Shown here: positions 10,470-60,935 of the stretch, piece after piece
Layout of the letters: every line of letters starts with the position of its first letter
Numbering within the stretch: the first letter of the stretch is position 1
Assembly: GCA_963782175.1 (NCBI GenBank)
Contig: CAWAIX010000010.1
Location: 154,399-218,398, forward strand
Direction: 5' to 3'
Source of the DNA: an uncultured Acidobacteriaceae bacterium
GTDB lineage: Bacteria; Acidobacteriota; Terriglobia; Terriglobales; Acidobacteriaceae
Length of the DNA: 64,000 nt
Translations under genes and position numbers: made by a program
The notes under the pieces: model-generated
Databases searched by the model: none
Told to the model about the DNA's origin: nothing
The model's input: only the letters and a program-made list of their open reading frames with translations

Positions 10470-10507
10470 TCATAACTTTCTTATTATCAGTTATTTAATT
10501 AATATTA

Positions 10508-10530: not shown

Positions 10531-10836
10531 TGCCGCTTTCAAAATTTTGTGGCTAGAGAAGTTTTTCTAGATCGCGGTCCCCAGCGGGGCGTTCGATCTG
10601 GTTTTTGAACCACCCCTCGGGTTGCCTATGGATCGGTCGGCTTCCTGCATCCGGTTAGCAGGTCGGCATTAGGGCCTAGGTCTCAAGAGAGGGCATCAAG
10701 GAATCCATACTGGAAGTGCTGGAAAGTCTGGCATGCGCATTGGGCTGATCTAAAATGCTGACGGGGTACAACGGTTTTGGACTTTTGGGTGATTTGCACA
10801 CCTCTCATCCCTGTGAGCGCGTCTGGCGTGAGCTAC

Positions 10837-11052: not shown

Positions 11053-11148
11053 CCATAAGCGACGCCTTCGGAAACTCGCACCACTTGCGCGTGAAGAGCA
11101 GCGAAGATGCGGAAAGCGATATGCTTACTGTCACTCAATTTCAGCAAC

Positions 11149-40442: not shown

Positions 40443-40456
40443 TGCTGATATCTCTC

Positions 40457-42025: not shown

Positions 42026-42432
42026 GCGAATGACCTCTCCACAACGATCGATAAGCGGGGGGAAAACGGGGCCGGAACATCACTGCATTTCGGATGGACT
42101 GCGTGATCTGCGACGAGCAGCTAAGCCCGGTGCAGCTTCCAATCGCGCCGGCAACGCATGTGCCGTTGGATACGCGTTTTCCGAGAATGCTTCAGCGCCA
42201 AAGAGTGTACCCCAAAATAAGCACTCCAGGCCCGTGAAATCCTCCACCTCGAAATCCCACTTCCGGGGTATCGAGTACTGTCCTTGATAGTGGCGCCGAA
42301 AGACCGCCTGTTACAGGTCTTTACACGCTGGCCGTAGTTCTGGCAGTCTAATCGGGCACCCCCGGAACTGGTGAGTCTCTACCGGAAATCATCCCGTAAA
42401 GCTGTTAGCTCGCCTAAACAAGAGATTCTTCA

Positions 42433-43218
42433 ATGGAAGCCCAGAGCGTACTCAAGCTGGAAGTCGCCGCCCTAACCGACGTGGGTTGCAAGAGATCCAA
42501 TAACGAGGACAGCTTTGGTTACGACCTCAACACCCAGATTTTCGCCGTCTGCGACGGGATGGGTGGCATGGCCGCGGGCGAGGTTGCGAGCAGCACCGCG
42601 GTCGCCGAACTGGTGCGATGTTTCAACCAGCAACCCGCGCAAATGCAGGCCGAGCCGCGGCTGTACCAGGCAATTCTTTACGCGAACACCCAGGTATGCA
42701 TGCTGTCCCGGGAAAGTGACGACCTCCGCGGCATGGGAACCACAATGGTCTCGGCCTGCGTGGACGGCCGGAAGATCGTCATCGGCAACGTTGGCGACAG
42801 CCGCGCCTATTTTCTCCGCAAAGGCAGGTGCGCGCAGGTGACGCTGGACCACTCCTACGTGGCCGAGCAGGTGCGGAACGGCATCATGAGCCCGGACGAC
42901 GCCGGCGCTTCACCCCTGCAGTCGTTGATCACCCGCGCCATCGGTACCGCGGAGTCCGTCGAGCCCGACCTTTTTACCGCGGAGTTGGAGCCGGGCGACA
43001 TCGTGCTGCTAACCACCGACGGGCTCACCCGCTATGCCGATTCCGACGTGATCGCGAGGCTCGTGCTGGGTAAGCCGGATCTGCAGCAGGCATGTCAGTC
43101 GTTAATCGATATCGCGAAGCAGCATGGCGCGGTCGACAACGTGACCTGCCTTCTGCTCCGATTCAGCGAAGCCGACGAAGCCACGCCGGCGGCAGTCGCT
43201 CGATCTGTAACCTACTGA
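42433..43218 (+). CDS. PP2C-family Ser/Thr phosphatase (PppA/Stp-like)
   Basis: TDVGCKRSNNEDSF, AVCDGMGGMAAGEVAS, GTTMV, GDSRAY, LLTTDGL and DNVTCLL. Divergent from the kinase gene; its 3' end overlaps the tssM 3' end by 7 nt. Confidence 0.9.
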   Translation: MEAQSVLKLEVAALTDVGCKRSNNEDSFGYDLNTQIFAVCDGMGGMAAGEVASSTAVAELVRCFNQQPAQMQAEPRLYQAILYANTQVCMLSRESDDLRGMGTTMVSACVDGRKIVIGNVGDSRAYFLRKGRCAQVTLDHSYVAEQVRNGIMSPDDAGASPLQSLITRAIGTAESVEPDLFTAELEPGDIVLLTTDGLTRYADSDVIARLVLGKPDLQQACQSLIDIAKQHGAVDNVTCLLLRFSEADEATPAAVARSVTY

Positions 43219-46200
43219 GTTACCTTTTGCACGCAATGCAATCCGCTCAGTCCTCCCGGCATCAGCAGGCTCGCCCCAGGTCCAGTCAACTCAAGCCGCA
43301 CAATCGGAGTGTTGCCCGTAACCGTCGTGGAGGTATTGGTTAGCCCCACCGGATACGCCAGCGTTGGCGGGTTCCCGTGCTCAACCTGGCCTTTGGCGAT
43401 AAGGTGAAACAACGCCCACGGTCCGGAGAACTGGGCAAGCGGAAGCGGCGCGTTGCCGTAAGTCACAATCAGCTGCGCCTGCGAGCTCTGCCCTGACCAT
43501 GTGAATTGTTTCGAGACATCCGCTCCGGACAACTGCTGCGAATCGAGAATCAGCGTCGCTGACGGGATGTTCTGCGAGCGCAGGATGTGGATCGTAAAGG
43601 TCAGCGTGGGGCTCGTTGTTCCGCTGGGGTATAGCGCGGTGGAAATACCCGCTGCTTTATTGAAGAACTGCAAAAACGCCGGGTTCACTTTCTGCGCAGC
43701 ATTGAATGCGGGAGCATACGTTGTGCCCTGCTGTATCAGAAGTTGCTTCAGCTTGGCGTCATAGAACTGCCACAGGGCTCCTGAACCAGGCTGGAAGACT
43801 GCGGAAATTTCGGCGGGGCTTGCCTCGGCGGCGGCATTCGCCGAGAAGGGGAACTTTGTCAGTACAGGGCTCAGCGCGGCGCAGAGTTCGCCGCCTCCAA
43901 CCGGGCCAGGTTTGGCCAGGCCGTCCACGCTGGTGATCGGGTCCTGAAGCAGTTTGAGTGAAGTCTGGTCCACGTGCGCCTGCGGATCAAGATCGAATGC
44001 CTGCGCGGTCTGACTGGCGGCGCCGTGCGCGCTCACCGCGGCTGAGGCTATGGGCTGTAACTGGTCCGGAGTCGGCGGGGTGGGATTCGAGGCAACAAGG
44101 GAGACGGCGCCTTGCAGGGCCATCAGGCCGTTAATGTATGTTGCGTTCTTGTCGTTTACCAGCTTCACCGTGCAGCTATCCGGTACGGCGAGAACTTGTG
44201 CCGGCTGGAACTCCTTGGAGATTTCCGGATTGGCCACTGCGGTGTTCTGCGAAATGGTACAGAAGAGCGCAAGCAGCGGTGTGTTTGGGTTCGAAAGTGT
44301 CTGCAGTTTTGCGCCTGCGTCTCTGAGGCTCTGATAGCGGACCACCTGCGCCGACTTCAAGAACGTGCGCCACTCCGACTGGTAATCGGCCAGATAGCGG
44401 CCGGCCAGTTGCGCGGTGAGTGCCCTCGGATCGAGCGACGGCGGCGCCTGATCTCCCAGCACCCACGCTTCGCCGCTGAAATACTTCTCCGGATGCAGGA
44501 TCGCGTCCTGCATAAACGCGAAGCCGCCCTTTGTGAAAGCTCCCTGCACGATATGCGGTTCGATCACCACGGCTGACGATCCCGGATACAGCCGGTTGAA
44601 GTCGATCGGCGGAGCCGCCTTGTTCGCCGCGTTGATCATCTGTTGATAAATACGGGCGATGCCGCCGAAGCTCGCCAGATACGCGCGCGCATGCGTTACC
44701 GTCGGCGTCACCGGCGCGATCGAGTACGGATTCCCCACGCGCAGTTCATTCGCATAAAAGTCGAATTGTAACTGTGCAAGTTGCCTTTGTTCTTGGGTCT
44801 CTGGGGCGCGGCCGTTCTGCCAATACTGCATCAATACCGGAGTGAGAAAATCCGCCGTGCTCTTTTCCGGATTCGTAGTCGTAATCAGGTAAGCCTTCAG
44901 CGGATTGTAGCCGGCACTGTAGTCCGAATCCGGCTGCGCAGAAGCGGGAAGGGCGTTCAGCGCAGTCACAAGATTATTCTGCGTATTCGTCAACAGCAGC
45001 TTCTGGAAGCGATCGAAGTAAATGCGGCGTGCCGCTTCGAGCATCTGGTCGCCGTGGTATAGCCCCCAGCGGTACATCAGCGGGGGACCCTGCTGACGAT
45101 AATTCTCTAGCTGCACGAGCGCGGTCCGAACCTGATTCAGTGCTCCCAGGTCTTTCGTCGAAGCAAGCATCGTCGGGGGCACTGTCGTTGTGGGCAGTGC
45201 GCTGGCTGCCGATGCGATTTCGTGCTCCAGCTTTGAGTTGTTGCCATAGGAAATCACGAGGCAGATCAGATAAAAGAACAGCAGCAGCGACACCGTCCCG
45301 AAGACAAAGCGGCGAAACACATGCGTTCTGCCGCTGTCACTGGTCCTCGCCAATGCGCTGCGGTCTCCCAGGACAACCACAGGAAACAGCTTCGGCAGGA
45401 AGCACCATTGCGCCACTTTCTGGGTGACAACTTGCGGATGGGGAGGCGCGCTGGCTGCCTGCGCCTGTTGCACGCTGAACATTCGCGTGGCCCCGGCGTC
45501 GGCAGGCGCGGCCTTCGGCGCCTGCGCCGGAGCGCTGACCATTTGCTCGACCATGTGCGCGCGCACACCCGTGAAGTAGAAGCCGCGCAGGTAAGGATTC
45601 GCATTCAGATGGCTTGGGCGCGCCAGCTCCACGAGGTACGATGCCAGGTTGTTCCGCAGTTTTTTCAACTCGCGCGGAAATTCGTACACCGGATCCACGT
45701 TCCTCTGATCGTTCTCTCGCGCCAGCACCTCAAGCCGATATTCGCCAAGCGAGAAGATCAGCTGGTCGAGAGAATTCGTAACCTCGGCTGTGGCTCTTTC
45801 CGCATACACGCCGCTCGAAGCATCGTTGCGCGCGAAGGCCATGCCAAGCGCCTGCGATGCATCTTCCGTCGTCAGATTGCGAACGTACTCCGCGAAGTCG
45901 GGCACGCGATCGAGCTTGGTGAAGACCACATAGACCGGAACCTCGGTGCCAAGTTGTTGCGCCAGGTCCCTCAGCATCTGGTTCGTCGCGCGGGCCGACG
46001 CCAGGACTGTCTCCGTCGCCGTCGTGCCGAGAAACTGCTCGCAGCTGATGCAGACCACCGCTGCGCGAACCGGGGCCTGTGTACCCATCGCCGAGCGATA
46101 TGCTTTCGGCCGTGTCTTGCGGATCAGCTTCTGCCACAACCCCGGGCTCTTGCGGACCGCGTCGCCGGCCTCGACGATGACGGCCTGCTGCGTGTACCAG

Positions 46201-46628
46201 AGATTCACGACCGGCGTAGGCATCACGTCCTGGTCGCGATAGATCTGCCCGGCCAGCAGCTCGGGATCGAGCCCTGACTTGAGCACTACCGTGGTCTTCG
46301 CCGAGTTTGATTCGCCCATCAGATAAAGCAGTGGCAGCCCATCGAGCGACTTCGCGCCCGTCCGCTGCGCTGAGGCCAGCCTCTTTTCGGCATCGTGCAG
46401 CAGTGTGTCCATCTCCGTGCCGCCGGTCACGTTTCGGGTGGCTGCGTCGCGCCGTTTTTCGCGGAAATGGAGAACCAGAATGATCGTTGCCGCCGCCGCT
46501 CCGAGCACGACGAGAAGAATGCGCAGAATCAGAAGGGAAGTCCCTTCGATGTGCAGCAGCAGGCCGGCCAGCCACGCGAGCACAACCGAGAAAAGAAAGA
46601 TCAGGACAGAAATCAGAATCGAGACCAC
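43212..46628 (-). CDS. tssM: T6SS membrane-complex protein TssM (IcmF)
   Basis: 1138 aa. Two or three N-terminal TM helices, a P-loop-like LYLMGESNSAKTTVV (Ala where the canonical Gly sits), IcmF-related central and C-terminal regions. Downstream of tssL. Confidence 0.88.
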   Translation of the reverse strand: MVSILISVLIFLFSVVLAWLAGLLLHIEGTSLLILRILLVVLGAAAATIILVLHFREKRRDAATRNVTGGTEMDTLLHDAEKRLASAQRTGAKSLDGLPLLYLMGESNSAKTTVVLKSGLDPELLAGQIYRDQDVMPTPVVNLWYTQQAVIVEAGDAVRKSPGLWQKLIRKTRPKAYRSAMGTQAPVRAAVVCISCEQFLGTTATETVLASARATNQMLRDLAQQLGTEVPVYVVFTKLDRVPDFAEYVRNLTTEDASQALGMAFARNDASSGVYAERATAEVTNSLDQLIFSLGEYRLEVLARENDQRNVDPVYEFPRELKKLRNNLASYLVELARPSHLNANPYLRGFYFTGVRAHMVEQMVSAPAQAPKAAPADAGATRMFSVQQAQAASAPPHPQVVTQKVAQWCFLPKLFPVVVLGDRSALARTSDSGRTHVFRRFVFGTVSLLLFFYLICLVISYGNNSKLEHEIASAASALPTTTVPPTMLASTKDLGALNQVRTALVQLENYRQQGPPLMYRWGLYHGDQMLEAARRIYFDRFQKLLLTNTQNNLVTALNALPASAQPDSDYSAGYNPLKAYLITTTNPEKSTADFLTPVLMQYWQNGRAPETQEQRQLAQLQFDFYANELRVGNPYSIAPVTPTVTHARAYLASFGGIARIYQQMINAANKAAPPIDFNRLYPGSSAVVIEPHIVQGAFTKGGFAFMQDAILHPEKYFSGEAWVLGDQAPPSLDPRALTAQLAGRYLADYQSEWRTFLKSAQVVRYQSLRDAGAKLQTLSNPNTPLLALFCTISQNTAVANPEISKEFQPAQVLAVPDSCTVKLVNDKNATYINGLMALQGAVSLVASNPTPPTPDQLQPIASAAVSAHGAASQTAQAFDLDPQAHVDQTSLKLLQDPITSVDGLAKPGPVGGGELCAALSPVLTKFPFSANAAAEASPAEISAVFQPGSGALWQFYDAKLKQLLIQQGTTYAPAFNAAQKVNPAFLQFFNKAAGISTALYPSGTTSPTLTFTIHILRSQNIPSATLILDSQQLSGADVSKQFTWSGQSSQAQLIVTYGNAPLPLAQFSGPWALFHLIAKGQVEHGNPPTLAYPVGLTNTSTTVTGNTPIVRLELTGPGASLLMPGGLSGLHCVQKVTQ

Positions 46629-46637: not shown

Positions 46638-47327
46638 CTATCTCGCGTTCATGCTGGCATTCTGTATACCGGATACCCCAGAACCAAGGGCAAGCTCGAA
46701 GCCACCGAATGCGATCACCGTCAGTCCGGCGAGCACGCAGGCAGTGATCAGCAGGGCGCGACTCCATCGATCGGTTGCCCGCGTAGCCCGCACTTCCGGA
46801 GCAGCCGTTGGCGGCACGAGATAAGCCGCGCCGCGGATGCGGTGAATCTTGTCCCGCGCCTGTCGCAGCATCTGGTGCAGTTCGCCGGAGTCGCCCAGCG
46901 CATACCGGCCGCGGTAGCCCGCCTGCAGGCACAGGCAGTAGACCTCCAGCGTGTCGGCAACCTCGGGAGAATCCTGCTGCGTAAGCAGCGCCTGCAACTT
47001 GCGGAAATAGGTCTCGCCGGCGTTGTGATCGCCGAACAGCTCTTCCTGCAGAGACTGCCGCGCCCAGTCCGTAAATGCCGGACTCCGCAGGTTCAGCACG
47101 CTCTCATCCATGAAAGCGACCACCGCAAAGACCGCCATCTGCACCGATTCGCTCGAGTAGCCGAGCGAGCGTGCCTCCTGCATTGCCGCTTGCAGCGAAC
47201 CCCGCATCTGCGAGCGGAAACTGGCTGAGTCCATTACCTGTTGCCGCTGAAAGCGCACCCGCAGAATGGCAGTCATCACTTCCTGGAAACAATATGCGAG
47301 GCTGTTGACGCGGACCGTGCTCATCAC
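46638..47327 (-). CDS. tssL: T6SS membrane-complex protein TssL (DotU family, no OmpA extension)
   Basis: LAYCFQEVMTAILRV, VFAVVAFMDESVL, LEVYCLCLQAGYRGRY, and a single C-terminal TM. ATGA overlap with tssK. Confidence 0.88.
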   Translation of the reverse strand: MMSTVRVNSLAYCFQEVMTAILRVRFQRQQVMDSASFRSQMRGSLQAAMQEARSLGYSSESVQMAVFAVVAFMDESVLNLRSPAFTDWARQSLQEELFGDHNAGETYFRKLQALLTQQDSPEVADTLEVYCLCLQAGYRGRYALGDSGELHQMLRQARDKIHRIRGAAYLVPPTAAPEVRATRATDRWSRALLITACVLAGLTVIAFGGFELALGSGVSGIQNASMNAR

Positions 47328-48676
47328 GATGCCTCCACAATGATGGTGAGGTCGAAGTCCGGCTTCGAAATTTCACCCGGGATGTAAACGCCCACCTTGC
47401 GGGTCTGCAGAATGTGCTCCCAGCAGGGCCCCGTCGTCTCAATGGCGAAGTATTGCATATCGGCCTCGGCCCGGATAGCTGTGGGCGGCACCTGCAAATG
47501 TCTTAGTGTCATTCCCGGCAGGGCGCGTTTCACCAGTTCAGGTACAAAGCGCGCCGAGCAAACCTTGATCAGCTTCGGCACCAGGTTCAGAAGCTCCGAT
47601 TCGCCGAGCCCAGACCGCACTCCGAACACCCAGCGCGCCCGCCGCAGGCACCGCTCGTCCACTACATCCGCCGCGTAGATATATGGCTCCGCCGGATGAA
47701 ACTCAGGCTTCACTGTGTTCGACGGAACCACAATTTCCAGGTGCTTCCTGATGTGCGCGTCGAGCACGCGAAACGCCGGCCCTGGAGCGCGATGATCGTA
47801 GGACGGGAGCTGGCGCGGGTCGGAATCGACAGCGAAGGTGCATAACGCTCCAGCCAGCCGCGACAGCTCGACGAACACCTCCTCAGGATGCGCATGCCGC
47901 GTACTGCTCAGGTGCTCGAGAGGGGGAATCGCGCTGTGCAGCGCATGAAGAAACCAGTAATTCGCCACATCGAGAGCGGAGGTCCCCGCCTCGAACCGTC
48001 CGTGGCGTCTTGCGCTTCGGGCAATCGTGCTGCTCTTTTCGCCGATGGTCTCGATGAGGCGCTTCACCAGCAACATCAGTGGCTCGCTCGCGCTGAGCCG
48101 CAGGCAGGTGGGTATGAATTCCTCGTCATAGATCAGGTGCCCGCGCCCGTCGCGCAGAACCTGGGCGATAGGGATCGAGAGCATCTCCGGCGTCAGCTCT
48201 GCCTCCGTCACCAGGCCGATATTTTTTTGCCCAAGATCCACCTCACGCTCGTCGATCCCGTTGGTCTCGTCGCGCAAGGTGCGCGGCATACGCGAAAACC
48301 GCGTGCCGTTGGTGCCATTCTCAAGATTGCAATCGAAGCCGCTGTCGCGGCGTCCCGGAACCGCCAGATACAACGGCAGCACCGAATCGGTTGTCGGAAA
48401 AACCTCGGCGAGGTTGCGCGGCGGCGGCGGCGGATCGGAATTGGGCAGCTCGAAGGCTAGTCCATCGGGAAAAATACCCGATGCGTGCAGCAGAACTGCG
48501 TTGCCGTTTCGGATCGCCTTCTGGTCGAGATCGGCGTGTAATAACCCCCACGGTTCATGCCACAGGCTCGCTGCCAGGAATGCGATGGAGTCTTCAAAAT
48601 AGCGGGACTGCGTCTGAAAATGGTGAGGGCCCAGGTACATCCCTTCTGACCACACAACCCGCGACAGGAATTTCAT
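47324..48676 (-). CDS. tssK: T6SS baseplate protein TssK, paralogue 2 (operonic with tssL-tssM)
   Basis: MKFLSRVVWSEGMYLGPHHFQTQSRYFE..., ASGIFPDGLAFELP. 450 aa. Confidence 0.88.
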   Translation of the reverse strand: MKFLSRVVWSEGMYLGPHHFQTQSRYFEDSIAFLAASLWHEPWGLLHADLDQKAIRNGNAVLLHASGIFPDGLAFELPNSDPPPPPRNLAEVFPTTDSVLPLYLAVPGRRDSGFDCNLENGTNGTRFSRMPRTLRDETNGIDEREVDLGQKNIGLVTEAELTPEMLSIPIAQVLRDGRGHLIYDEEFIPTCLRLSASEPLMLLVKRLIETIGEKSSTIARSARRHGRFEAGTSALDVANYWFLHALHSAIPPLEHLSSTRHAHPEEVFVELSRLAGALCTFAVDSDPRQLPSYDHRAPGPAFRVLDAHIRKHLEIVVPSNTVKPEFHPAEPYIYAADVVDERCLRRARWVFGVRSGLGESELLNLVPKLIKVCSARFVPELVKRALPGMTLRHLQVPPTAIRAEADMQYFAIETTGPCWEHILQTRKVGVYIPGEISKPDFDLTIIVEAS

Positions 48677-48764
48677 AGTGACCGAACCATGGGGTGAACC
48701 CGATCATTCAAGCGGCTCGCGCACATCTGCGATCGCGAGGGCCGATCGGAGCGCTTCCTCAACT

Positions 48765-48784
48765 AGGGCCTGTTAGCAGGCCCT
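48765..48784. promoter_or_regulatory. Perfect 8-4-8 palindrome in the divergent tssK2 / FTQ-repeat-gene control region (candidate operator)
   Basis: agggcctg-ttag-caggccct. No flanking T-run on either strand, so it does not look like a terminator. Confidence 0.35.
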
Positions 48785-48918
48785 GCTTTAAAGCCTGATT
48801 TTGCTGCCGCCAGGACGTGTGTGCATCGTAGGTTGCCGCCCCTTTACTGTCAAGTAATTGCGATGTAGTCTGGGTCTCCAGAACCAGGCGATAAATTCGC
48901 AAGCTGTGGTGGCCCGCT

Positions 48919-50613
48919 ATGGACTCGTCCAAGTCTCCTTTCGATGATCCCGATCTTCACCGCAAGAGCGAATCCGCCGCCAGCGACCCCTCCAGTGCAA
49001 CCGCAATCTTCGGAACAGTCTCGCCGAAGCCGGCGCAGCCCGAAGACGACATCCTGAAGTCGCTCCTCGCAAATCAAAGCGCTCCATCGGCGACTCCGTC
49101 CGAGCCGCCTTGGAGCCCGGTAACGACGCCTTCTACTGCCCAAGCGCCCGCTCCACCCCAATTGTCTGCCTCTCCTAATCCGACCAGTCCTGGCGGCTTC
49201 ACTCAGATGTTCCAGGCCCTCCAGAATCCTGCCGAACCCGCGTCGCCTTCTGCGCCTTCATCTGCGCCCGCGCCCCTCAACCCCCCGCCCAACCCTCCGA
49301 CTGACCTGTCAGCTGTCTTCACGCAGGTTGTGGTCGAGAAGACGGCCTTTTCGCCGCCGCCCGCTCCCGTTGCGGCCGGGGCTGGCGAGTTCACGCAGCT
49401 TTTGCAGACGCTCAACACTTCGCCCCAGACTCCCGGGACGCAGCCCGCTCCGCCTCAAACGGCGACACCAGCCTCGCCGCCTGCATCCGCGCCCGGCGCA
49501 TTCACGCAGTTATTCAGCTCGGTTTCAGCACCGGCGCCACCCTCTCCCGCCCCACCCCCTCCGGCTCCGGCCTCTGCGGTCGTAGACTCGCAGCCGACGG
49601 CCGCGGTTCCGATGCCTAAGTCCCCCGCCTTTGCGCCGCCCCCAGCCACCAGGCCAGAGCAGGGGCCGCCTGGCGACTTCACCCGCGTGTTTCAGTCGCT
49701 CACATCGGCAAAGGAAGCGCCTCCGCCTGCACCCGCACCTGCGTTTTCGCCGCCGCAACCGGCGTCAGCGCCGGCATCGGGCCCGGGAGCCTTCACGCAG
49801 ATGTTCGCCGCGAAGCCGCTGGAGAGCACCCCGGCAGAAGATTCTCTGAAGTCGCTTCGGCCTGAGCCGCCTGCGCCGCCCTCGTCGGGCACCTTTTCGT
49901 TCCATACTCCTCCATCGCGTCCGCCCGAACCCCGCCCGATTGCCCAGGGCGGCTTCACGCAGCTTCTCCAGGCGCTGAACGAGAAGGAAAACCAGGAGGA
50001 GACGCTGGCGCAATCTCCGGAGCCCTTCATGCCTCCGCCTTCCCCATCGCCCGCCGCCCCTAATGCGGGTATGGCCGCGGGCATGGGAGGCTTCACGCAG
50101 CTCTTGCAGACCCTCTCCGCCGACCCTGCCGCGCGCCCCGCAGCCCAGCCGTCTCCGATGCCGCCCGCAGCCTCGCCGCCGGCAACTTCCTCGCCTGCAA
50201 CTTACCCGACGTCCGGCGCTCCCGGCGAGTTCACCCGCGTCATACAGGGCGATCAGTTTCGCGCACTGCATGGCCAAAACGCCGCAGCCGGACAGGTTGC
50301 GCCGGGACCTCCCGTTCTTCCTCCGCAACAGGCCGCGGCGCCGCGGCAGCCCCTGCAATTTCCGTCAGCTCCCGCGTTTTCTCCCGCGCCCGCAATGCCA
50401 CAGATCCCTGTCGCTCATCCTCCAGCGGCCGCTCCGCCGCCTGCGATGCCGCATTACCAACCGCCTGCGTTCCAGTTCCCGCCTGCGCCCGCGCCGCCCG
50501 CACCGCCTCCATCCAGCAAGCTGCAGCAATATCTGCCGCTCATTCTGGTGCTGAACATCTTCGTGCTGCTGGTAATTGTGGTGATCCTCATCTTTGTCTT
50601 AAGGCACCACTAA
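48919..50613 (+). CDS. Tail-anchored proline-rich protein with 9-11 G-x-F-T-[QR]-h-h-Q repeats (unknown function, T6SS-embedded)
   Basis: 564 aa, no signal peptide. Clear motif copies: GGFTQMFQAL, AVFTQVVV, GEFTQLLQTL, GAFTQLFSS, GDFTRVFQSL, GAFTQMFAA, GGFTQLLQAL, GGFTQLLQTL, GEFTRVIQG. Two degenerate copies: TAIFGTV, GTFSFHT. Pro/Ala/Ser linkers between them. C-terminal TM LPLILVLNIFVLLVIVVILIFVL followed only by RHH. Confidence 0.8.
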   Translation: MDSSKSPFDDPDLHRKSESAASDPSSATAIFGTVSPKPAQPEDDILKSLLANQSAPSATPSEPPWSPVTTPSTAQAPAPPQLSASPNPTSPGGFTQMFQALQNPAEPASPSAPSSAPAPLNPPPNPPTDLSAVFTQVVVEKTAFSPPPAPVAAGAGEFTQLLQTLNTSPQTPGTQPAPPQTATPASPPASAPGAFTQLFSSVSAPAPPSPAPPPPAPASAVVDSQPTAAVPMPKSPAFAPPPATRPEQGPPGDFTRVFQSLTSAKEAPPPAPAPAFSPPQPASAPASGPGAFTQMFAAKPLESTPAEDSLKSLRPEPPAPPSSGTFSFHTPPSRPPEPRPIAQGGFTQLLQALNEKENQEETLAQSPEPFMPPPSPSPAAPNAGMAAGMGGFTQLLQTLSADPAARPAAQPSPMPPAASPPATSSPATYPTSGAPGEFTRVIQGDQFRALHGQNAAAGQVAPGPPVLPPQQAAAPRQPLQFPSAPAFSPAPAMPQIPVAHPPAAAPPPAMPHYQPPAFQFPPAPAPPAPPPSSKLQQYLPLILVLNIFVLLVIVVILIFVLRHH

Positions 50614-50620
50614 GGCGCGG

Positions 50621-51976
50621 TTATTCCGGGTTTGCGAACAGAATGATCAGCTCCATCTCGGGATTTGGGATCTCTCCCGGCACATAGACTCCGAAGTTGC
50701 GCGAGCGCAGAATGGACTCCCACACCGGACCCGAGTGCTCCAGGCTGAAGTACTGGTAGCGCAGCTTCACCGGGATGGCCCGCGGGGGCACCGGAACGTG
50801 CAGCATCTTCAGCCCGGGCAATGCTCTCGTTATCAATTGCTCGATATGCGTCGCCGAGCAGGCCTTGGTGAGGACCGGAGTCTTGCTGATCAGATCGGCT
50901 TCACGCAGATCCGACGAGATCGCCAAGTAGAAGCGTGAGTTCTCGAAGTACTTATCCTTCTCGATCGCAGTCGCGTAAATATTCTCCCGCAGTAGCTTGA
51001 GCGGCAGCGCGACAAAGTTGCTCGGCACAACTGTCTCGAGCAGCTCGGCAATAATTGCGTCGAGCGCGAGAAAGCACGGGCCGAGCTTTTCGTGTTCGTA
51101 CTCAGGCAGGTCGCGCGGCTCGATCTTTGGAGAAAACGTCGTCAACGCGCCGGCCAGCCTGAGCATTTCCAGGAAAAGCGCCTCCGGATGAACCCGGCTG
51201 CTCTGCAGCATGTGCCGCAGCACCGGCAGGTGCGAGTTGATCGTGTACAGGAGCCAGAAGTTCGCCACGTCCGATGCGCTGAAGTCGGCCAGCGATTGGT
51301 TGCGTTGCCGCCGCGTAGCGGCAAGCTGCCCGCTTCTGCCAACGAGAGTCTCGATCAGGCCGCGCAGGATGCCCGTCAGCAGCTCATTTCCCTTCAGGTT
51401 CAGCATCGGCGGCACATACTTCGTGTCCAGCCGATAGCCGCCGGCCTCCGTGCGCTCGATCTCCGCCAAAGGCAGCAGCACCGACCCCTCGAGGTTCTCG
51501 CCCTCGGCCAGAATCTGCAGGTTCTTGCGCGCCAGCGACACCGGCTTCTCGATGCCGGTGCTGTTTTCGTCGCGCAGCATCTGCAGCTCGGAATAAAAGC
51601 GGGTATTGATTCCCGTGCGCTGCAGTCCGATATTGATCCCGCCCGGCCGGTCCTGCGGAATCGCGAGGAAGAAGGCGCAGCGGTTACTCCCTGCTGGAAA
51701 GCACTCCTCCAGGGTCCGCGAGCGCGGTGGCGCGTCTGAGGCCGGCATGTCGAGCATCAGGCCGTCCGGAAACACGCCTGACGCCTGGCTCAGGTTCAGT
51801 TGGCCTTCGCTCAGCGCTGTCCCATCAATCTGTAATGACGAAAAGCCCCAGTTGCGGAAGGCAAGCGCATCGGCGAGAAAGCGCAGGCTCTCCTCGAAGA
51901 AGCGGTCCTGCGCCTGCAGGTGCTGCGGAGATAAAAAGACACCCTTCGACCAGACAACGGGTTGCAACTGTCGCAT
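50621..51976 (-). CDS. tssK: T6SS baseplate protein TssK, paralogue 1 (stand-alone, divergent from tssB)
   Basis: MRQLQPVVWSKGVFLSPQHLQAQDRFFE..., ASGVFPDGLMLDMP. 451 aa, colinear with paralogue 2 but strongly diverged. Confidence 0.88.
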   Translation of the reverse strand: MRQLQPVVWSKGVFLSPQHLQAQDRFFEESLRFLADALAFRNWGFSSLQIDGTALSEGQLNLSQASGVFPDGLMLDMPASDAPPRSRTLEECFPAGSNRCAFFLAIPQDRPGGINIGLQRTGINTRFYSELQMLRDENSTGIEKPVSLARKNLQILAEGENLEGSVLLPLAEIERTEAGGYRLDTKYVPPMLNLKGNELLTGILRGLIETLVGRSGQLAATRRQRNQSLADFSASDVANFWLLYTINSHLPVLRHMLQSSRVHPEALFLEMLRLAGALTTFSPKIEPRDLPEYEHEKLGPCFLALDAIIAELLETVVPSNFVALPLKLLRENIYATAIEKDKYFENSRFYLAISSDLREADLISKTPVLTKACSATHIEQLITRALPGLKMLHVPVPPRAIPVKLRYQYFSLEHSGPVWESILRSRNFGVYVPGEIPNPEMELIILFANPE

Positions 51977-52184
51977 TCGGCCGGTTACCTATCGGGTTTT
52001 GAGTATACCGTGGCGATTTGGCTCGCCGTCTTTCCTTGCGGCCGGACGGGCGGATCGGAAAGGCTGCGTCACCGCGGCCGCGTTCGGCTGCCCTTCCCGA
52101 ATTGGCTCCAAAATGACCTGGTGTGGGCCGCTGAATAGCTGCTGCGTTTAGGCCCGCTGAACATCCCGGTCGTAACGCGCGCGG

Positions 52185-52213
52185 CTTGACACGCACTATA
52201 GCTGAGTTAATAA
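52185..52213 (+). promoter_or_regulatory. Candidate sigma-70-type promoter for the tssB operon
   Basis: ttgaca (52185-52190), a 17-nt spacer, aataat (52208-52213). About 170 nt upstream of the tssB ATG. Confidence 0.35.
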
Positions 52214-52384
52214 TTGGGCCGCTCTCATTGCCCGGTTTTGAGCAGCCTCGTAATACACAGCGGTCAAATAACGCATTCATAAAGAAGGGCACAAAGAGGC
52301 TGGGAACCCACCCCCTTTAGATCGTGTCGTTGAATCGAACCCCACGCGGACGGATTTCCGCACCGCCATTCGAGGACAAACACT

Positions 52385-52909
52385 ATGGCTAGAGAAAGTA
52401 CGCAGCATAAACTGGATCGCGTCCGTTCGCCGCGCGTGCACATCACCTACGATGTTGAAATCGGCGACGCCATCGAACTCAAGGAACTGCCGTTCGTCAT
52501 GGGTGTCCTCGGAGACCTGACCGGCCAGCCCGAGCAGCCTCTGGCCGCCCTCAAGGACCGCAAATTCGTCGAGATCAATCCCGACAATTTCGACACTGTC
52601 CTCAAAGGCATGCAGCCTCACCTGGCTTTCTCTGTGCCGAACCGCCTGACCGACGACCCCAGTGCCGGTCAGATTGGCGTAAACCTCCGCTTCGAGAGCC
52701 TCGATGACTTTTCACCGGAGAACGTCGCCAAGCAGGTCGCCCCATTGAAAGAGCTCTTCGATCTGCGCACGCGCCTCTCGGATCTTCGCGGCAGCCTCCA
52801 GGGCAACGACAAGCTCGATGAGGCCCTGTTCGACGCGGTTTCCAACACCGAGTCGCGCGAGAAGCTTCGCTCCGAACTCGGGACCGGCAAAGACGGAGGT
52901 GGGCAATGA
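52385..52909 (+). CDS. tssB: T6SS contractile sheath small subunit TssB (VipA)
   Basis: STQHKLDRVRSPRVHITYDVEIGDAIELKELPFVMGVLGDLTG. Confidence 0.93.
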   Translation: MARESTQHKLDRVRSPRVHITYDVEIGDAIELKELPFVMGVLGDLTGQPEQPLAALKDRKFVEINPDNFDTVLKGMQPHLAFSVPNRLTDDPSAGQIGVNLRFESLDDFSPENVAKQVAPLKELFDLRTRLSDLRGSLQGNDKLDEALFDAVSNTESREKLRSELGTGKDGGGQ

Positions 52910-54399
52910 GCACGACCAAAGCACCGGCTGCGGCAGCGAGCGCATCCGTTGAACAGGTATCCGAGCAGAGTCTGCTGGATCAGATTGTCTCTCAGGGCCG
53001 CTTCAATCGCGACGCTGCAACTCTGGAGCGCGGCCGCGACATGGTCAAGGAGTTCGTCAACCAGGTCCTCGATGGCCAGATGACCCTGTCCCGCGACGCC
53101 GAAGCCACCATTCAGGCTCGCATCGCGCAGATCGATCGGCTCATCTCGCTCCAGTTGAACGAAATCCTGCACTATCCAGCCTTTCAGAAGCTCGAATCAA
53201 CCTGGCGCGGTATCAAGTACCTGATCGATCAGTCCGAAACCAGCGACATGCTCAAGATCAAGGTCCTGAACGTCTCGAAGCGCGAGTTGCTGAGAGATCT
53301 GCAGCGGGCTTCCGAATTCGATCAGAGCGCACTGTTCAAAAAGGTCTATGAAGAAGAGTTCGGCATCTTCGGCGGAGCGCCTTTTGCCGCGCTTGTCGGT
53401 GATTACGAATTCGGCCGCGGTCCCGAAGATGTAGAACTGCTGGAGCGGGTGTCTCAGGTTGCTGCGGCAGCCCACGCGCCCTTCCTGTCGGCGGCGTCAT
53501 CTGACCTGCTTAACCTCACCAGCTACACCCAGCTCGGCTCACCGCGCGACGTCGGTAAAATCTTCGACTCGACCGAATACGCCAAGTGGAAGTCCTTCCG
53601 CCAGTCGGAGGATTCTCGTTACGTCGCTCTTACGCTGCCACACATCCTCATGCGCCTGCCCTACGGCAAAGATACAAAGCAGGTCGACGCCTTCGACTAC
53701 GAAGAAGCTGTCGATGGCAGCGATCACTCGAAATACCTCTGGGGCAACGCCTCTTATGGTCTGGCCGCGCGCCTGACAAATTCGTTTGCAAGGTACGGCT
53801 GGTGTGCTGCCATCCGCGGAGTTGAGGGCGGCGGCCTTGTCGAAGGCCTGCCCGCTCACACCTTCCGCACCGACGAGGGCGACATCGCGCTCAAATGCCC
53901 GACCGAAGTCGCCATCACCGACCGCCGCGAAAAGGAGCTCGCCGACCAGGGCCTCGTGCCTCTGGTGCACTGCAAGGGAACCGACTACGCGGCCTTCTTC
54001 AGCGTTCAGACCGCCAACAAGCCCAAGCTCTATGACAAGGAAGCGGCTAACGCCAACGCCCGCCTTTCGGCTCAACTGCCTTACATCCTTGCCATGTCTC
54101 GCTTCGCCCATTACCTCAAGGCGATGATGCGCGATAAGATCGGCAGCTTCATGAGCCGCCAGGACTGCGAAAAGTTTCTTAACCAGTGGATCAGCAATTA
54201 CGTTTGTGCGGACGACAACGCCTCCCAGGCCGCCAAGGCGAAACTGCCTTTGCGGGAGGCTGCGATCCAGGTGTCCGAAGTACCCGGCAAGCCTGGCGCT
54301 TACCGCGCGGTCGCGTTTCTGAAGCCGCATTTCCAACTCGACGAGCTCTCTGTTTCGCTTCGTCTGGTGGCCGATTTGCCGGCGTCGGCGCGGAAGTAG
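52906..54399 (+). CDS. tssC: T6SS contractile sheath large subunit TssC (VipB)
   Basis: 497 aa. ILHYPAFQKLESTWRGIKYL, EEFGIFGGAPF, LTLPHILMRLPYG. ATGA overlap with tssB. Confidence 0.93.
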   Translation: MSTTKAPAAAASASVEQVSEQSLLDQIVSQGRFNRDAATLERGRDMVKEFVNQVLDGQMTLSRDAEATIQARIAQIDRLISLQLNEILHYPAFQKLESTWRGIKYLIDQSETSDMLKIKVLNVSKRELLRDLQRASEFDQSALFKKVYEEEFGIFGGAPFAALVGDYEFGRGPEDVELLERVSQVAAAAHAPFLSAASSDLLNLTSYTQLGSPRDVGKIFDSTEYAKWKSFRQSEDSRYVALTLPHILMRLPYGKDTKQVDAFDYEEAVDGSDHSKYLWGNASYGLAARLTNSFARYGWCAAIRGVEGGGLVEGLPAHTFRTDEGDIALKCPTEVAITDRREKELADQGLVPLVHCKGTDYAAFFSVQTANKPKLYDKEAANANARLSAQLPYILAMSRFAHYLKAMMRDKIGSFMSRQDCEKFLNQWISNYVCADDNASQAAKAKLPLREAAIQVSEVPGKPGAYRAVAFLKPHFQLDELSVSLRLVADLPASARK

Positions 54400-54479
54400 C
54401 ATCGCCAAAGCATCGCCGGACGTCCCTGACTACGGCATGAGATACCAGCAGTGCGCTAACCAGTAAGAGAGGAGCCGAC

Positions 54480-54956
54480 ATGGCGGTAGATTATTTCCTG
54501 AAGCTGGATGGAATTGATGGTGAATCTTCGGATGCGAACTTCAAGAATCAGATACAACTTATGAGCTGGAGTTGGGGTGCATCCCAGGTCTCCTCGGTCG
54601 CGGGAACAGGCGGATCCGGCGCGGGCAAGGCCGACCTGAGCGATTTCAGCTTGATGACCTACTTCGATAAGTCAACGCCGAAGTTCTTCAAGTCCATTGG
54701 TCTGGGCACACACATCGCTTCGGGCACACTGAGTGCAGTCAAATCCGGCGCGCAAGGCAAGCCCTACCTGAAGGTCGACTTTGCCGAGATCTTTGTCACC
54801 AGCCTACAGATGTCGGGATCGAGCGAAGTTCCCACCGTGAGCATTTCATTTACATACAACGAAATCAAGATCGACTACTCGGTGCAGGACGAGAAAGGCA
54901 ATCTCAAGAGTACGGGCCCGATCACTTACAACACGAAAGAAAACAAGCTCACGTAA
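54480..54956 (+). CDS. hcp: T6SS tube protein Hcp (TssD)
   Basis: MAVDYFLKLDGIDGESSDANFKNQIQLMSWSWGASQ. 158 aa. Confidence 0.93.
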   Translation: MAVDYFLKLDGIDGESSDANFKNQIQLMSWSWGASQVSSVAGTGGSGAGKADLSDFSLMTYFDKSTPKFFKSIGLGTHIASGTLSAVKSGAQGKPYLKVDFAEIFVTSLQMSGSSEVPTVSISFTYNEIKIDYSVQDEKGNLKSTGPITYNTKENKLT

Positions 54957-54967
54957 GGGCGACCCTC

Positions 54968-55696
54968 ATGGACGCGCTTTCGCTCTATCGTGCCGGCCAG
55001 CTCAAGCCGGCAATCGACGCGCTTGGTGACGAGTTGAAGAAGCAGCCACTCGACACCAGGCGCCGTACTTTTTTGTTCGAGCTGCTTTGTTTCGCCGGCG
55101 ACTACGATCGCGCTGCCAAGCAGCTTGACGTACTCTCCGACTCCAGCAAGGAAGCCGCTGCCGGGGCCATGCTCTATCGTGCCGCCCTGCATGCCGAGAG
55201 AACCCGGCAGGAAATGTTCGCCAGGGACGAACTTCCGCTGGGCACTGTCCATCCATCGCCTTCCGGCCAATGGAATGGCGCCGATTTCGCAGAGTTCTCC
55301 GATGCCGACCCGCGCATCGGCGCGCATCTCGAAGCATTCATCGCCGGAAGTTACACCTGGATTCCGTTCGCGTATGTGGAGTCCATCGAGGTTGAAGCCC
55401 CGAAGCGCCTGCGCGACCTTCTCTGGATGCCTGCCATCCTGCACACCACCTCCGATTTCCGCCTGCAGGATCTCGGCGAGGTTCTCCTGCCGATGATTTC
55501 ACCGCTTTCCTGGAAGCATTCCGACGATGCGGTCCGTCTTGGTCGCGCCACCGTCTGGGAAGACGATCCGAAATACGGACAGATACCGCTCGGACAGAAA
55601 ATCTTGCTGTGCGGCGACGAAGAGGAGCCATTTCTGCAGCTACGCCACCTGACTTTCCACCACGCCGGGGAGACGGCCGAAAGTGCCACTTCGTGA
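54968..55696 (+). CDS. tagJ: T6SS accessory protein TagJ (ImpE family)
   Basis: Position after hcp as in the H1-T6SS. N-terminal TPR-like LYRAGQLKPAIDALGDELKKQPLDTRRRTFLFELLCFAGDYDRA. ImpE-type C-terminal half. Confidence 0.75.
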   Translation: MDALSLYRAGQLKPAIDALGDELKKQPLDTRRRTFLFELLCFAGDYDRAAKQLDVLSDSSKEAAAGAMLYRAALHAERTRQEMFARDELPLGTVHPSPSGQWNGADFAEFSDADPRIGAHLEAFIAGSYTWIPFAYVESIEVEAPKRLRDLLWMPAILHTTSDFRLQDLGEVLLPMISPLSWKHSDDAVRLGRATVWEDDPKYGQIPLGQKILLCGDEEEPFLQLRHLTFHHAGETAESATS

Positions 55697-57528: not shown

Positions 57529-57550
57529 GTATGAAAAGGAGCCCGGAGGT

Positions 57551-58015
57551 TTGGCGCGTTCCACAACAGAAACGCTGGTGACACAATCCGTTCTCGACCG
57601 GTTGATGACCGTCGAGGAATGGCCGGCCACCCGCTCGCAGTCCCTGCGCTACTTCAAAGACGCCCTGAAGCGCGACCTCGAATGGCTGCTCAACACGCGC
57701 CAGCCGCCTATTCCCGAACTTGCCGAGTATCCGCTCGCGCGCAATTCCGTCATCAACTTCGGACTGCCCGACATCACCTCACTCGGCCTCTCCTCGGCCT
57801 CCGACCACGGACGCCTGCGCAAAGCCATCGAGCTCTGCCTGCGCAATTTCGAGCCGCGCCTCATGGATGTGCGCGTGACCCTCGAAGGCGCCGACACCGC
57901 CGACCGTCGCCTTCGCTTTCACATCGAGGGAAGCATGAAGCTCGATCCCGCGCCCGAAGAAATCGCCTTCGACACCGTGCTCGAGCTTTCGAGCGGCGAG
58001 TACAAGGTGAAATAG
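57551..58015 (+). CDS. tssE: T6SS baseplate protein TssE (gp25-like)
   Basis: SVLDRLM...FKDALKRDLEWLLNTRQ...NSVINFGLPD. TTG at 57551 lies 9 nt after AGGAG. Start is approximate. Confidence 0.8.
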   Translation: MARSTTETLVTQSVLDRLMTVEEWPATRSQSLRYFKDALKRDLEWLLNTRQPPIPELAEYPLARNSVINFGLPDITSLGLSSASDHGRLRKAIELCLRNFEPRLMDVRVTLEGADTADRRLRFHIEGSMKLDPAPEEIAFDTVLELSSGEYKVK

Positions 58016-58017
58016 CC

Positions 58018-60902: not shown

Positions 60903-60935
60903 CTCGAAGCAGTTCTACCCACGGGAGTAAGACCC

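What the first reader, a model, noticed from the sequence alone, without database searches (positions are those of the whole stretch)
47324..51976. Two full-length, strongly diverged TssK paralogues in one locus, in an odd divergent/convergent gene geometry
Seen in sequence:
- ORFs 47324-48676 (450 aa) and 50621-51976 (451 aa) are both complete TssK proteins and are colinear over their whole length.
- They share blocks such as VVWS-G-L-P-H-Q-Q-R-FE, ASG-FPDGL, VANxWxL, RLAGAL-TF, VVPSN, RALPG and GVY-PGEI.
- By eye, well under half of the positions are identical, so this is not a recent duplication.
- One copy is translationally coupled to tssL-tssM. The other stands alone, divergent from tssB, and ends only 7 nt from the stop codon of the plus-strand FTQ-repeat gene (convergent, with no room for a terminator).

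Established knowledge: canonical T6SS-i loci encode a single TssK, which forms trimers linking the TssFG baseplate wedge to TssL/TssM.

Inference: two paralogues flanking a novel scaffold gene suggest a hetero-oligomeric or alternative baseplate connector, or specialisation (one TssK for the membrane complex and one for the new protein).
Basis: partly seen in the sequence, partly recalled or inferred. Interest (0 to 1): 0.7.

Follow-up and report, generated by a model that had tools for sequence, protein, structure and literature searches.

The report
Two conserved TssK baseplate paralogues
One type VI secretion gene cluster of a soil acidobacterium encodes two old, equally well-conserved versions of the baseplate protein TssK, and this pairing recurs across Acidobacteriota and Gemmatimonadota, so it marks a distinct, apparently undescribed variant of the machine rather than a chance duplication.

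Summary
ORFs 47324-48676 (K1, 450 aa) and 50621-51976 (K2, 451 aa) are both full-length TssK and share 39% identity with no gaps. Both models match solved TssK in shoulder, neck and head. The geometry is as described: K1 overlaps the tssL start, and K2 ends 7 nt from the stop of the repeat-protein gene.

This is not a local oddity.
- Both genes are present in 61 of 64 informative loci from Acidobacteriaceae-like species, in 24 of 38 more distant metagenome loci, and in Gemmatimonadota.
- Both are under strong purifying selection (dN/dS about 0.08-0.09) and diverge at the same rate.
- K1 belongs to a large divergent TssK clade that always precedes tssL-tssM. K2 always sits divergent from tssB.
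- The FTQ-repeat gene is a conserved tail-anchored partner of the K1-tssL-tssM module. It is not required between the two tssK genes.

Best reading: two non-redundant, subfunctionalised TssK subunits of a single T6SS. They most plausibly fill the two non-equivalent TssK trimer positions on TssG. That mechanism is inferred, not shown.

RefSeq already annotates both genes as tssK. I found no paper that discusses the pairing. I rate it a new variant of a known kind, of moderate interest.

The parts
47324..48676 (-). tssK1: the K1-type TssK paralogue (450 aa). Its stop codon overlaps the tssL start.
   Evidence: PF05936 E = 3.8e-127. TIGR03353 at 368 bits. AF2 pLDDT 83.8 with Foldseek top hits TssK 5Y0E/5M30/6GIY. 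Junction sequence read directly.
50621..51976 (-). tssK2: the K2-type TssK paralogue (451 aa). Stands alone, divergent from tssB.
   Evidence: PF05936 E = 5.5e-140. TIGR03353 at 425 bits. AF2 pLDDT 83.6 with Foldseek top hits TssK.
48919..50613 (+). Gene for a proline-rich, tail-anchored protein (564 aa) with about 9 P-G-x-F-T-[QR]-[ML]-[FL]-[QS] motifs and a C-terminal transmembrane helix. It is a conserved partner of the K1-tssL-tssM module.
   Evidence: Translation. No Pfam or NCBIfam hit. DNA repeat families. Present on the opposite strand upstream of K1 in related loci. Motif logo from 403 motifs.
46638..47327 (-). tssL (DotU family).
   Evidence: PF09850 E = 1.3e-44.
43212..46628 (-). 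tssM (IcmF family).
   Evidence: PF06761, PF14331, PF21070 and PF06744.
48677..48918 (.). Divergent intergenic region between tssK1 and the repeat-protein gene. It holds a sigma-70-like site for tssK1 at 48853-48825 (minus strand).
   Evidence: 10 of 12 matches. This is a consensus match only.
50614..50620 (.). 7-nt convergent junction (GGCGCGG) between the stop codons of the repeat-protein gene and tssK2.
   Evidence: A tight junction is typical of the family (median 14 nt).
51977..52384 (.). Divergent intergenic region between tssK2 and tssB. It holds a sigma-70-like site for tssB at 52186-52214 (plus strand).
   Evidence: 11 of 12 matches. No such site was found for tssK2.
52385..54399 (+). 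tssB (52385-52909) and tssC (52906-54399), the sheath genes.
   Evidence: PF05591, PF05943 and PF18945.
54480..55696 (+). hcp (54480-54956) and tagJ/impE (54968-55696).
   Evidence: PF05638 and PF07024.
55683..57528 (+). tssA, interrupted by an apparent frameshift between about 56462 and 56572.
   Evidence: ImpA_N and VasJ fall in two separate ORFs. tblastn of the intact 615-aa orthologue gives two frames.
57551..60902 (+). tssE (about 57551-58015), tssF (about 58018-59859) and tssG (59823-60902), the baseplate wedge genes.
   Evidence: TIGR03357. PF05947 and PF06996. TssG aligns to EAEC TssG across both TssK-binding loops.
60936..63594 (+). clpV/tssH, with an apparent frameshift near 62490.
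   Evidence: The two overlapping ORFs carry the N- and C-terminal ClpV domains. The frames were inspected directly.
39453..43218 (.). Regulatory genes: a CsgG-like lipoprotein gene (39453-40442, minus), the ppkA Hanks-type kinase (40457-42025, minus) and the pppA PP2C phosphatase (42433-43218, plus).
   Evidence: The same genes flank the locus in relatives.

Best explanation
The locus encodes one T6SS-i whose baseplate uses two obligate, non-redundant TssK paralogues. The pair arose before this T6SS lineage spread through Acidobacteriota and Gemmatimonadota, and it has been kept together since.

K1 is encoded with the membrane-complex genes tssL-tssM and with the tail-anchored repeat protein, and is probably translationally coupled to tssL. 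K2 is encoded beside the sheath and wedge operon.

Most likely mechanism (inferred): each paralogue forms its own trimer, and the two trimers take the two structurally non-equivalent TssK positions of each wedge. These are the sites on TssG loop 1 and TssG loop 2, which a single TssK fills in E. coli. K1 would then be the copy specialised for contact with TssL/TssM and the repeat protein.

Shown here: both are complete TssK proteins, both are under selection, they co-occur, and each has a fixed gene neighbourhood. Not shown: stoichiometry, position in the wedge, and binding partners.
For: Both copies are complete TssK proteins.
- Sequence and fold evidence.
- The secondary-structure elements of the two models match one for one.

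They co-occur widely.
- 61 of 64 informative loci from GTDB species representatives have both.
- 24 of 38 informative, more distant metagenome loci have both.
- Named examples: Paracidobacterium, Alloacidobacterium and Granulicella tundricola; Bryobacteraceae; Gemmatimonadales and Gemmatimonadaceae MAGs; Gemmatirosa.

Both are under selection.
- Median dN/dS is 0.076 for K1 and 0.093 for K2. dN values correlate at r = 0.97.
- Mean pairwise distances are equal, 0.263 against 0.269.
- Divergence between the two is uniform over shoulder, neck and head, at 36-38% identity.

Each has a fixed neighbourhood.
- K1-type is followed by tssL in every locus that extends far enough to show it, and by tssM where the locus reaches that far. 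K2-type is next to tssB in every locus that shows its upstream side.

Both look able to bind TssG.
- Both keep the N-terminal VVWS[E/K]G segment. In EAEC the first ~15 residues of the TssK trimer form the cavity that binds the TssG loops.
- 5 of the 14 positions fixed differently in the two families lie in residues 5-26. One is a charge swap, E11/K11.
- The window's TssG keeps both TssK-binding loops.
- Each wedge of a canonical T6SS carries two non-equivalent TssK trimers (PMC6300606).

Only one set of tssB/C/E/F/G/H/A/L/M is present in the locus.
Against: - There is no direct evidence on stoichiometry, on homo- versus hetero-trimers, or on where each copy sits.
- The excess of family-specific sites in the N-terminus is not significant once the general conservation of that segment is allowed for: 5 of 17 conserved columns there against 14 of 94 overall.
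- The mirror-tree signal is confounded by linkage and shared phylogeny. Partial r values were K1-TssL +0.49, K2-TssB +0.52 and also K2-TssM +0.46.
- 14 distant loci show K1-tssL-tssM modules with no K2 and no other T6SS gene within 10 kb. A K1-only machine, or another role for that module, is therefore not excluded.
- The NJ tree cannot say whether K1 and K2 are sisters or whether K1 was captured from another T6SS lineage.
- In this window tssA and clpV carry apparent frameshifts. This particular copy could be inactive if they are real.
Confidence: 0.5

Rival explanations
1. K1 and K2 co-assemble into mixed trimers (for example 2:1). Every TssK trimer in the baseplate would then be a hetero-oligomer. 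This would turn the symmetry mismatch between a three-fold trimer and an asymmetric TssG loop into a fixed, encoded asymmetry.
For: - Strict co-retention, equal evolutionary rates and a strong K1-K2 distance correlation: r = 0.97, partial r = +0.49.
- Gap-free colinearity and identical secondary-structure layout, including the neck helices that build the trimer.
- The neck is not more diverged than the other domains: 38% identity against 36-37%.
Against: - The genes sit in different transcription units, and in Gemmatirosa they are 31 kb apart. Subunits of an obligate hetero-oligomer are usually co-transcribed, so this counts weakly against.
- No complex prediction was possible with the tools available.
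- All solved TssK structures are homotrimers.
Confidence: 0.2
2. The two TssK proteins are used alternatively, not together. There would be two baseplate variants or two assembly states, for example K2 in the free cytoplasmic wedge and K1 pre-bound at the membrane complex. Alternatively, K1-tssL-tssM plus the repeat protein is a semi-autonomous membrane module that can also serve another machine.
For: - Separate promoter regions for the two genes.
- K1-tssL-tssM modules, mostly with the repeat-protein gene, occur without other T6SS genes within 10 kb in 14 loci.
- Some distant loci carry an extra fused TssB-TssC-like gene after tssM.
Against: - In Acidobacteriaceae the modules are almost always adjacent and co-diverge.
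- K1 keeps the highly conserved N-terminal segment that, in EAEC TssK, binds TssG. This suggests it still docks on the wedge.
- Whether the genomes with orphan modules hold K2 elsewhere could not be checked.
Confidence: 0.15
3. One copy is a redundant or decaying duplicate with no function of its own.
For: - Canonical T6SS-i work with a single TssK.
- Occasional broken copies exist: K2 is fragmented in L069. That MAG also has a fragmented tssB, so sequencing error is the more likely cause.
Against: - dN/dS is 0.076 and 0.093, and the rates are equal in every domain.
- Both copies are intact in 61 of 64 informative species loci and across two phyla.
- 80 columns are at least 90% conserved with the same residue in both families.
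Confidence: 0.03

Closest known systems
Canonical T6SS-i baseplate with a single TssK (EAEC Sci-1; PDB 5M30, 6N38, 6GIY)
   Same: - Same protein family and the same three-domain fold for both copies.
- Same surrounding core genes: tssB, C, E, F, G, H, A, L, M and hcp.
- TssG with two TssK-binding loops, and the tssK-tssL-tssM gene order for K1.

   Different: - There are two TssK genes at 39% identity in one locus instead of one.
- K1 belongs to a separate, divergent TssK clade.
- No tssJ or fha gene was seen in the locus, although ppkA and pppA are present.

The Acidobacteria/Gemmatimonadetes branch of T6SS subtype i4b (plasmid pACIX901 of Granulicella tundricola; Gemmatirosa kalamazoonensis plasmid 1)
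   Same: - These are relatives of the same locus type.
- G. tundricola has tssK, an inserted amidohydrolase gene, an 816-aa FTQ-repeat gene on the opposite strand, then tssK-tssL-tssM. RefSeq names both genes tssK.
- Gemmatirosa has a K2-type gene beside tssB and a K1-type gene with tssL-tssM.
- A published TssB tree places these two plasmid systems together in a branch of i4b (PMC9113992).
   Different: - The paper that classifies them does not mention the double tssK.
- I did not run a TssB subtype classification on the window itself.
Multiple T6SS clusters per genome, each with its own tssK (named tssK1, tssK2, tssK3 in Pseudomonas, Klebsiella and Vibrio)
   Same: More than one TssK paralogue in one genome.
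   Different: In those species each TssK belongs to a separate, complete T6SS cluster (the papers listed). Here both belong to a single set of core genes.
PpkA/PppA/Fha threonine-phosphorylation control of T6SS (P. aeruginosa H1-T6SS; Agrobacterium TssL). Recalled from general knowledge, not tested here.
   Same: - A Hanks-type kinase and a PP2C phosphatase flank the locus.
- The repeat protein carries many copies of an invariant Thr in F-T-[QR]-hydrophobic-hydrophobic. From memory, this resembles a Hanks-kinase acceptor site and an FHA-type ligand.
   Different: - No FHA-domain gene was found among the ORFs I scanned in the window's T6SS region or in the related locus L072. The window ends 406 bases after clpV.
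- Phosphorylation of the repeat protein is pure conjecture.

Membership tests
TssK (PF05936 / TIGR03353), K1 copy | Full-length match to the family profile above the curated cut-off | tested here: met
   PF05936 at 425 bits, profile positions 1-429 of 429. TIGR03353 equivalog at 368 bits against a cut-off of 100.
TssK (PF05936 / TIGR03353), K2 copy | Full-length match to the family profile above the curated cut-off | tested here: met
   PF05936 at 467 bits, profile positions 1-428 of 429. TIGR03353 at 425 bits.
TssK, both copies | Three-domain fold: beta-sandwich shoulder, helical neck, alpha/beta head | tested here: met
   - AF2 models have pLDDT 83.8 and 83.6.
- Foldseek top hits are TssK 5Y0E, 5M30 and 6GIY, at E = 1e-33 to 1e-39.
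- Shoulder plus neck against 5MWN/6N38: TM about 0.80.
- Head against 5M2Y: TM 0.80-0.84.

TssK, both copies | Conserved N-terminal segment that forms the TssG-loop-binding cavity (first ~15 residues in EAEC) | tested here: met
   - K1 family consensus: MkfLSrVVWSEGMYLgPHHFQ.
- K2 family consensus: MrqLQPVvWsKGvfLsPQHLQ.
- Most positions are at least 90% conserved within each family.
- The role of the segment is taken from PMC6300606. Binding itself was not tested.
TssK, both copies | Homotrimer formation, and binding to TssFG and to TssL/TssM | not testable with these tools
   Only single-chain structure prediction was available.
TssK, both copies | Encoded within a T6SS core gene cluster | tested here: met
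   tssM, tssL, tssB, tssC, hcp, tagJ, tssA, tssE, tssF, tssG and clpV are all in the same 21-kb stretch.
T6SS subtype i4b (Acidobacteria/Gemmatimonadetes branch) | TssB phylogenetic placement (SecReT6 scheme) | not tested
   Inferred only. The G. tundricola plasmid system has TssB 84% identical to the window's. It is presumably the single 475-kb Acidobacteriaceae plasmid that PMC9113992 reports as i4b, though that paper does not name the plasmid.
Hanks-type protein kinase (N-lobe), for the N-terminal domain of distant homologues of the repeat protein | Significant profile match to kinase domains | tested here: inconclusive
   - No Pfam hit.
- A profile of 16 N-terminal domains hits kinase N-lobes only weakly: MARK2 E = 0.0098 and StkP E = 0.06.
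- hhalign against the window's PpkA gives a probability of 12.7%.
- The window's own protein lacks this domain.

The most novel reading that the evidence does not exclude
Acidobacteriota and Gemmatimonadota share a distinct T6SS architecture in which the connector between baseplate and membrane complex is built from two dedicated TssK paralogues, one for each of the two non-equivalent positions on TssG.

In the same reading, the membrane side carries a tail-anchored, multivalent PGxFT[QR] repeat protein that takes over the scaffold or phospho-switch role played by Fha in proteobacterial systems, as a substrate of the adjacent PpkA/PppA pair.
Probability: 0.25. Interest if true: 0.75.

Novelty: new variant of a known kind. 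Interest (0 to 1): 0.55.

Why it matters
In the studied T6SS, one TssK has to fill two different positions on each wedge and also has to contact the membrane complex. Here evolution has split TssK into two long-lived paralogues. That offers a way to separate these roles genetically and structurally, and it is a clear case of a homo-oligomeric part becoming two specialised parts.

The pairing also marks the T6SS of two abundant soil phyla, Acidobacteriota and Gemmatimonadota. To my knowledge no T6SS from these phyla has been studied experimentally. The pairing comes with an uncharacterised, conserved accessory protein and a kinase/phosphatase pair but no Fha.

The practical value is modest. It refines an existing model and gives annotators and T6SS classifiers a diagnostic feature. 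It does not overturn anything.

Tried and rejected
**Recent local duplication: rejected.** K1 and K2 fall in different major TssK clades. Within Acidobacteriaceae the two subtrees are congruent.

**Decaying copy: rejected.** dN/dS and the domain-wise rates argue against it.

**Two T6SS clusters lying side by side: rejected for the window.** Only one set of core genes is present. The extra TssB/TssC-like hits in distant loci turned out to be a single fused ORF, not a second cluster.

**Domain-specific divergence (for example, only the head diverged): not found.** Identity is 36-38% in every domain.

**Repeat protein as a piece of a PpkA-like kinase.** The window's PpkA and a Gemmatimonadaceae kinase have no FT[QR] repeats. 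The kinase-N-lobe likeness of the distant homologues stays inconclusive.

**Exact look-up of the window's own contig: failed.**

**Literature: seven searches found no description of two tssK genes in one locus, or of the PGEFT motif.**
- Hits for "two TssK" refer to two trimers per wedge.
- Hits for "TssK2" refer to separate clusters or to testis kinases.
- An Acidobacteria comparative-genomics paper does not mention T6SS at all.

**Mirror-tree analysis: run, but too confounded to weigh.**

**A flaw in one of my layout scans.** The TssF query I cut for the tblastn layouts was one base out of frame. TssF rows are therefore unreliable. No conclusion rests on them.


Full report
**1. The observation**

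The window holds a T6SS-i locus from about 39.4 kb to at least 63.6 kb. The gene order is as follows.

| Gene | Coordinates | Strand |
|---|---|---|
| CsgG-like lipoprotein | 39453-40442 | - |
| ppkA | 40457-42025 | - |
| pppA | 42433-43218 | + |
| tssM | 43212-46628 | - |
| tssL | 46638-47327 | - |
| tssK1 | 47324-48676 | - |
| repeat-protein gene | 48919-50613 | + |
| tssK2 | 50621-51976 | - |
| tssB, tssC, hcp, tagJ, tssA, tssE, tssF, tssG, clpV | 52385-63594 | + |

- The two TssK ORFs share 39% identity over 446 residues with no gap, E = 5e-117.
- Each matches PF05936 over the whole profile and passes the TIGR03353 equivalog cut-off.
- Each aligns end to end with solved TssK structures.
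- AlphaFold2 models (pLDDT 83.8 and 83.6) have the same order of secondary-structure elements. They match TssK structures in shoulder, neck and head.
The K1 stop overlaps the tssL start. Seven bases separate the convergent stop codons.

**2. Organism and breadth**

The closest database proteins come from Silvibacterium, Terracidiphilus and other Acidobacteriaceae.

*Species representatives.* A scan of GTDB species representatives with K1 returned 80 loci.
- 64 of them show enough upstream sequence to judge. 61 of these have a K2-type gene upstream on the same strand, usually with tssB just beyond it.
- Of the three exceptions, L072 is a rearranged locus in which K2 would lie outside the fetched flank.
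- L069 carries a fragmented K2 next to a fragmented tssB, in a MAG that is probably from long reads.

*Cultured strains.* The same layout is present in Paracidobacterium acidisoli, Alloacidobacterium dinghuense and Granulicella tundricola. In the last, RefSeq already names both genes tssK.

*More distant relatives.* A metagenome scan with a profile of distant K1-type proteins gave 38 informative loci. 24 have both genes. Named relatives include:
- a Bryobacteraceae MAG with the same three-gene arrangement;
- a contig carrying a protein that NCBI assigns to a Gemmatimonadales MAG, with the same arrangement;
- a Gemmatimonadaceae MAG with tssK-tssK-tssL-tssM directly in tandem and no middle gene;
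- Gemmatirosa kalamazoonensis, where the K2-type gene sits beside tssB and the K1-type gene with tssL-tssM lies 31 kb away.

The double tssK is therefore the rule in this T6SS lineage. A published TssB tree places an Acidobacteria and a Gemmatimonadetes plasmid system together in a branch of subtype i4b (PMC9113992).

**3. The relation between the two copies**

An exhaustive search of 50%-identity cluster representatives was combined with a neighbour-joining tree.
- K1 falls in a large divergent clade of about 40 clusters.
- K2 falls on the other side, among canonical TssKs. K2 also scores better against the family profiles and against PDB entries.
- The tree is midpoint-rooted and has no support values. 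It cannot say whether the two clades are sisters.
- Within Acidobacteriaceae the K1 and K2 subtrees have the same shape.

Selection and rates:
- dN values against the window correlate at r = 0.97.
- Median dN/dS is 0.076 for K1 and 0.093 for K2. dS is close to saturation, so these values are approximate, but they are clearly far below 1.
- Mean pairwise distances are 0.263 and 0.269. This lies between the sheath genes (about 0.125) and TssL/TssM (0.31-0.39).
- Identity between the paralogues is even across domains: shoulder 37%, neck 38%, head 36%. Ortholog conservation is also the same in each domain.

Neither copy is decaying.

**4. Fixed neighbourhoods**

- K1-type tssK is followed by tssL in every locus that extends far enough to show it, and by tssM where the locus reaches that far.
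- It is nearly always preceded, divergently, by a gene for a proline-rich protein with a C-terminal transmembrane helix and repeated P-G-[EGS]-F-T-[QR]-[ML]-[FL]-[QS] motifs. I counted 403 motifs in 53 proteins, and 2-15 per protein across all the loci examined.
- That gene stays with K1-tssL-tssM in Gemmatirosa. It is also present in most of the 14 modules that have no other T6SS gene within 10 kb; a few show no such ORF.
- K2-type tssK is divergent from tssB.

The locus therefore consists of two modules that are usually adjacent. The arrangement with a tssK gene on each side of the repeat-protein gene is simply their junction. The tight convergent junction is typical: median 14 nt, range from -4 upwards.

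**5. Mechanism**

Established knowledge from PMC6300606:
- Each T6SS wedge carries two TssK trimers.
- They are bound to two different TssG loops and tilted about 60 degrees to each other.
- The N-terminal ~15 residues of the TssK trimer form the loop-binding cavity.

What the sequences show:
- Both paralogue families keep this N-terminal segment highly conserved.
- 5 of the 14 positions fixed differently in the two families lie in residues 5-26, including E11 in K1 against K11 in K2.
- The window's TssG retains both loops with hydrophobic residues at the aligned positions.

My preferred reading is that each paralogue has specialised for one of the two positions, with K1 oriented towards TssL/TssM and the repeat protein.

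This step is inference. The N-terminal excess is not significant against the background conservation of that segment. The mirror-tree hints are confounded by linkage. Mixed trimers, or alternative use of the two proteins, remain open.

**6. Known or new**

Seven literature searches found no description of two tssK genes within one T6SS cluster, or of the repeat motif. The searchable library holds open-access papers only, so this is absence of evidence. Public annotation already labels both genes as TssK. I rate the finding a new variant of a known kind.

**7. Caveats**

- tssA and clpV are each split by an apparent frameshift in the window. An RND transporter gene further upstream also looks split. 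This pattern suggests indel errors of a long-read assembly rather than a dead locus, but it is unverified.
- No vgrG or PAAR gene lies inside the window. In a relative they follow clpV, which would place them beyond base 64000.

Noticed in passing
window 48919-50613 (+); homologues in L001-L084, L085-L164, L165, L166, L169-L171: The middle gene encodes a conserved, unannotated accessory protein.
- It is a long proline-rich, probably disordered chain with a C-terminal transmembrane helix (the tail reads KLQQYLPLILVLNIFVLLV...RHH).
- It carries 2-15 copies of P-G-x-F-T-[QR]-[ML]-[FL]-[QS].
- It has no Pfam or NCBIfam family.
- The Thr is present in 95% of motifs, and ppkA/pppA lie in the same locus with no fha gene seen. 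It may therefore be a multi-site kinase substrate or a multivalent scaffold.
   Followed up: partly
L098 5099-6916 (-), L131 2043-3992 (-), L119, L166 11967-13841 (-), and others: Distant homologues of the repeat protein begin with a folded-looking domain of about 95 aa (consensus MxFxxKYELxExL...TFxARxxxTGRxVxVHLL...YVVT...WL). It resembles a kinase N-lobe without the glycine loop or the catalytic lysine. Profile hits to kinase N-lobes are weak, at E = 0.01-0.3. The window's own protein lacks this domain.
   Followed up: partly
window 55683-57528 (tssA), 60936-63594 (clpV), about 29931-32848 (RND transporter): Three long genes are each split into two overlapping or adjacent ORFs in different frames. 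Orthologues in related genomes are intact (for example, TssA is 615 aa in L001). This is probably indel error in a long-read assembly. Real pseudogenes are the alternative.
   Followed up: partly
L091 15204-16829 (+), L124 15595-16992 (+); tblastn hits also in L102 and L139: In one distant sub-lineage a single ORF directly after tssM fuses a VipA/TssB-like domain to part of a VipB/TssC N-terminal domain. It lacks the C-terminal gp25-like domain. This is an extra sheath-like protein encoded with the membrane module.
   Followed up: partly
L092, L100, L104, L113, L130, L148, L163, L170 and others: K1-type tssK-tssL-tssM modules, often followed by one or two Ser/Thr kinase genes, occur with no other T6SS gene within 10 kb on either side. 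Most, but not all, have the repeat-protein gene upstream. Whether the rest of the T6SS and a K2-type gene lie elsewhere in those genomes is unknown.
   Followed up: no
L070 (Edaphobacter MAG) 1936-3279, 3814-5181, 8130-8426, 10001-11350: This locus carries a K2-type gene, an extra full-length K1-like gene (about 60% identity to K1), a K2-like fragment, and the regular K1. It shows further duplication and rearrangement.
   Followed up: no
window 39453-40442 (-): A CsgG-family lipoprotein gene lies immediately downstream of ppkA. It recurs beside ppkA in relatives (L004, L072, L152, and weakly in Gemmatirosa L166). No tssJ was found, so this lipoprotein may belong to the envelope or sensing side of the system.
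   Followed up: no
L165 (Granulicella tundricola pACIX901) 9235-11253; L043 and L040 gaps of 2.7-4.8 kb; L169 4526-6067: Unrelated genes are inserted at the module boundaries in some genomes. An amidohydrolase lies between K2 and the repeat-protein gene in L165. A methyltransferase lies between tssB and K2 in L169. These boundaries appear to tolerate insertion.
   Followed up: no
window 52186-52214 (+) and 48853-48825 (-): Near-consensus sigma-70-like sites lie upstream of tssB (11 of 12 matches) and tssK1 (10 of 12). None was found for tssK2 or for the repeat-protein gene, so their promoters are unidentified.
   Followed up: no
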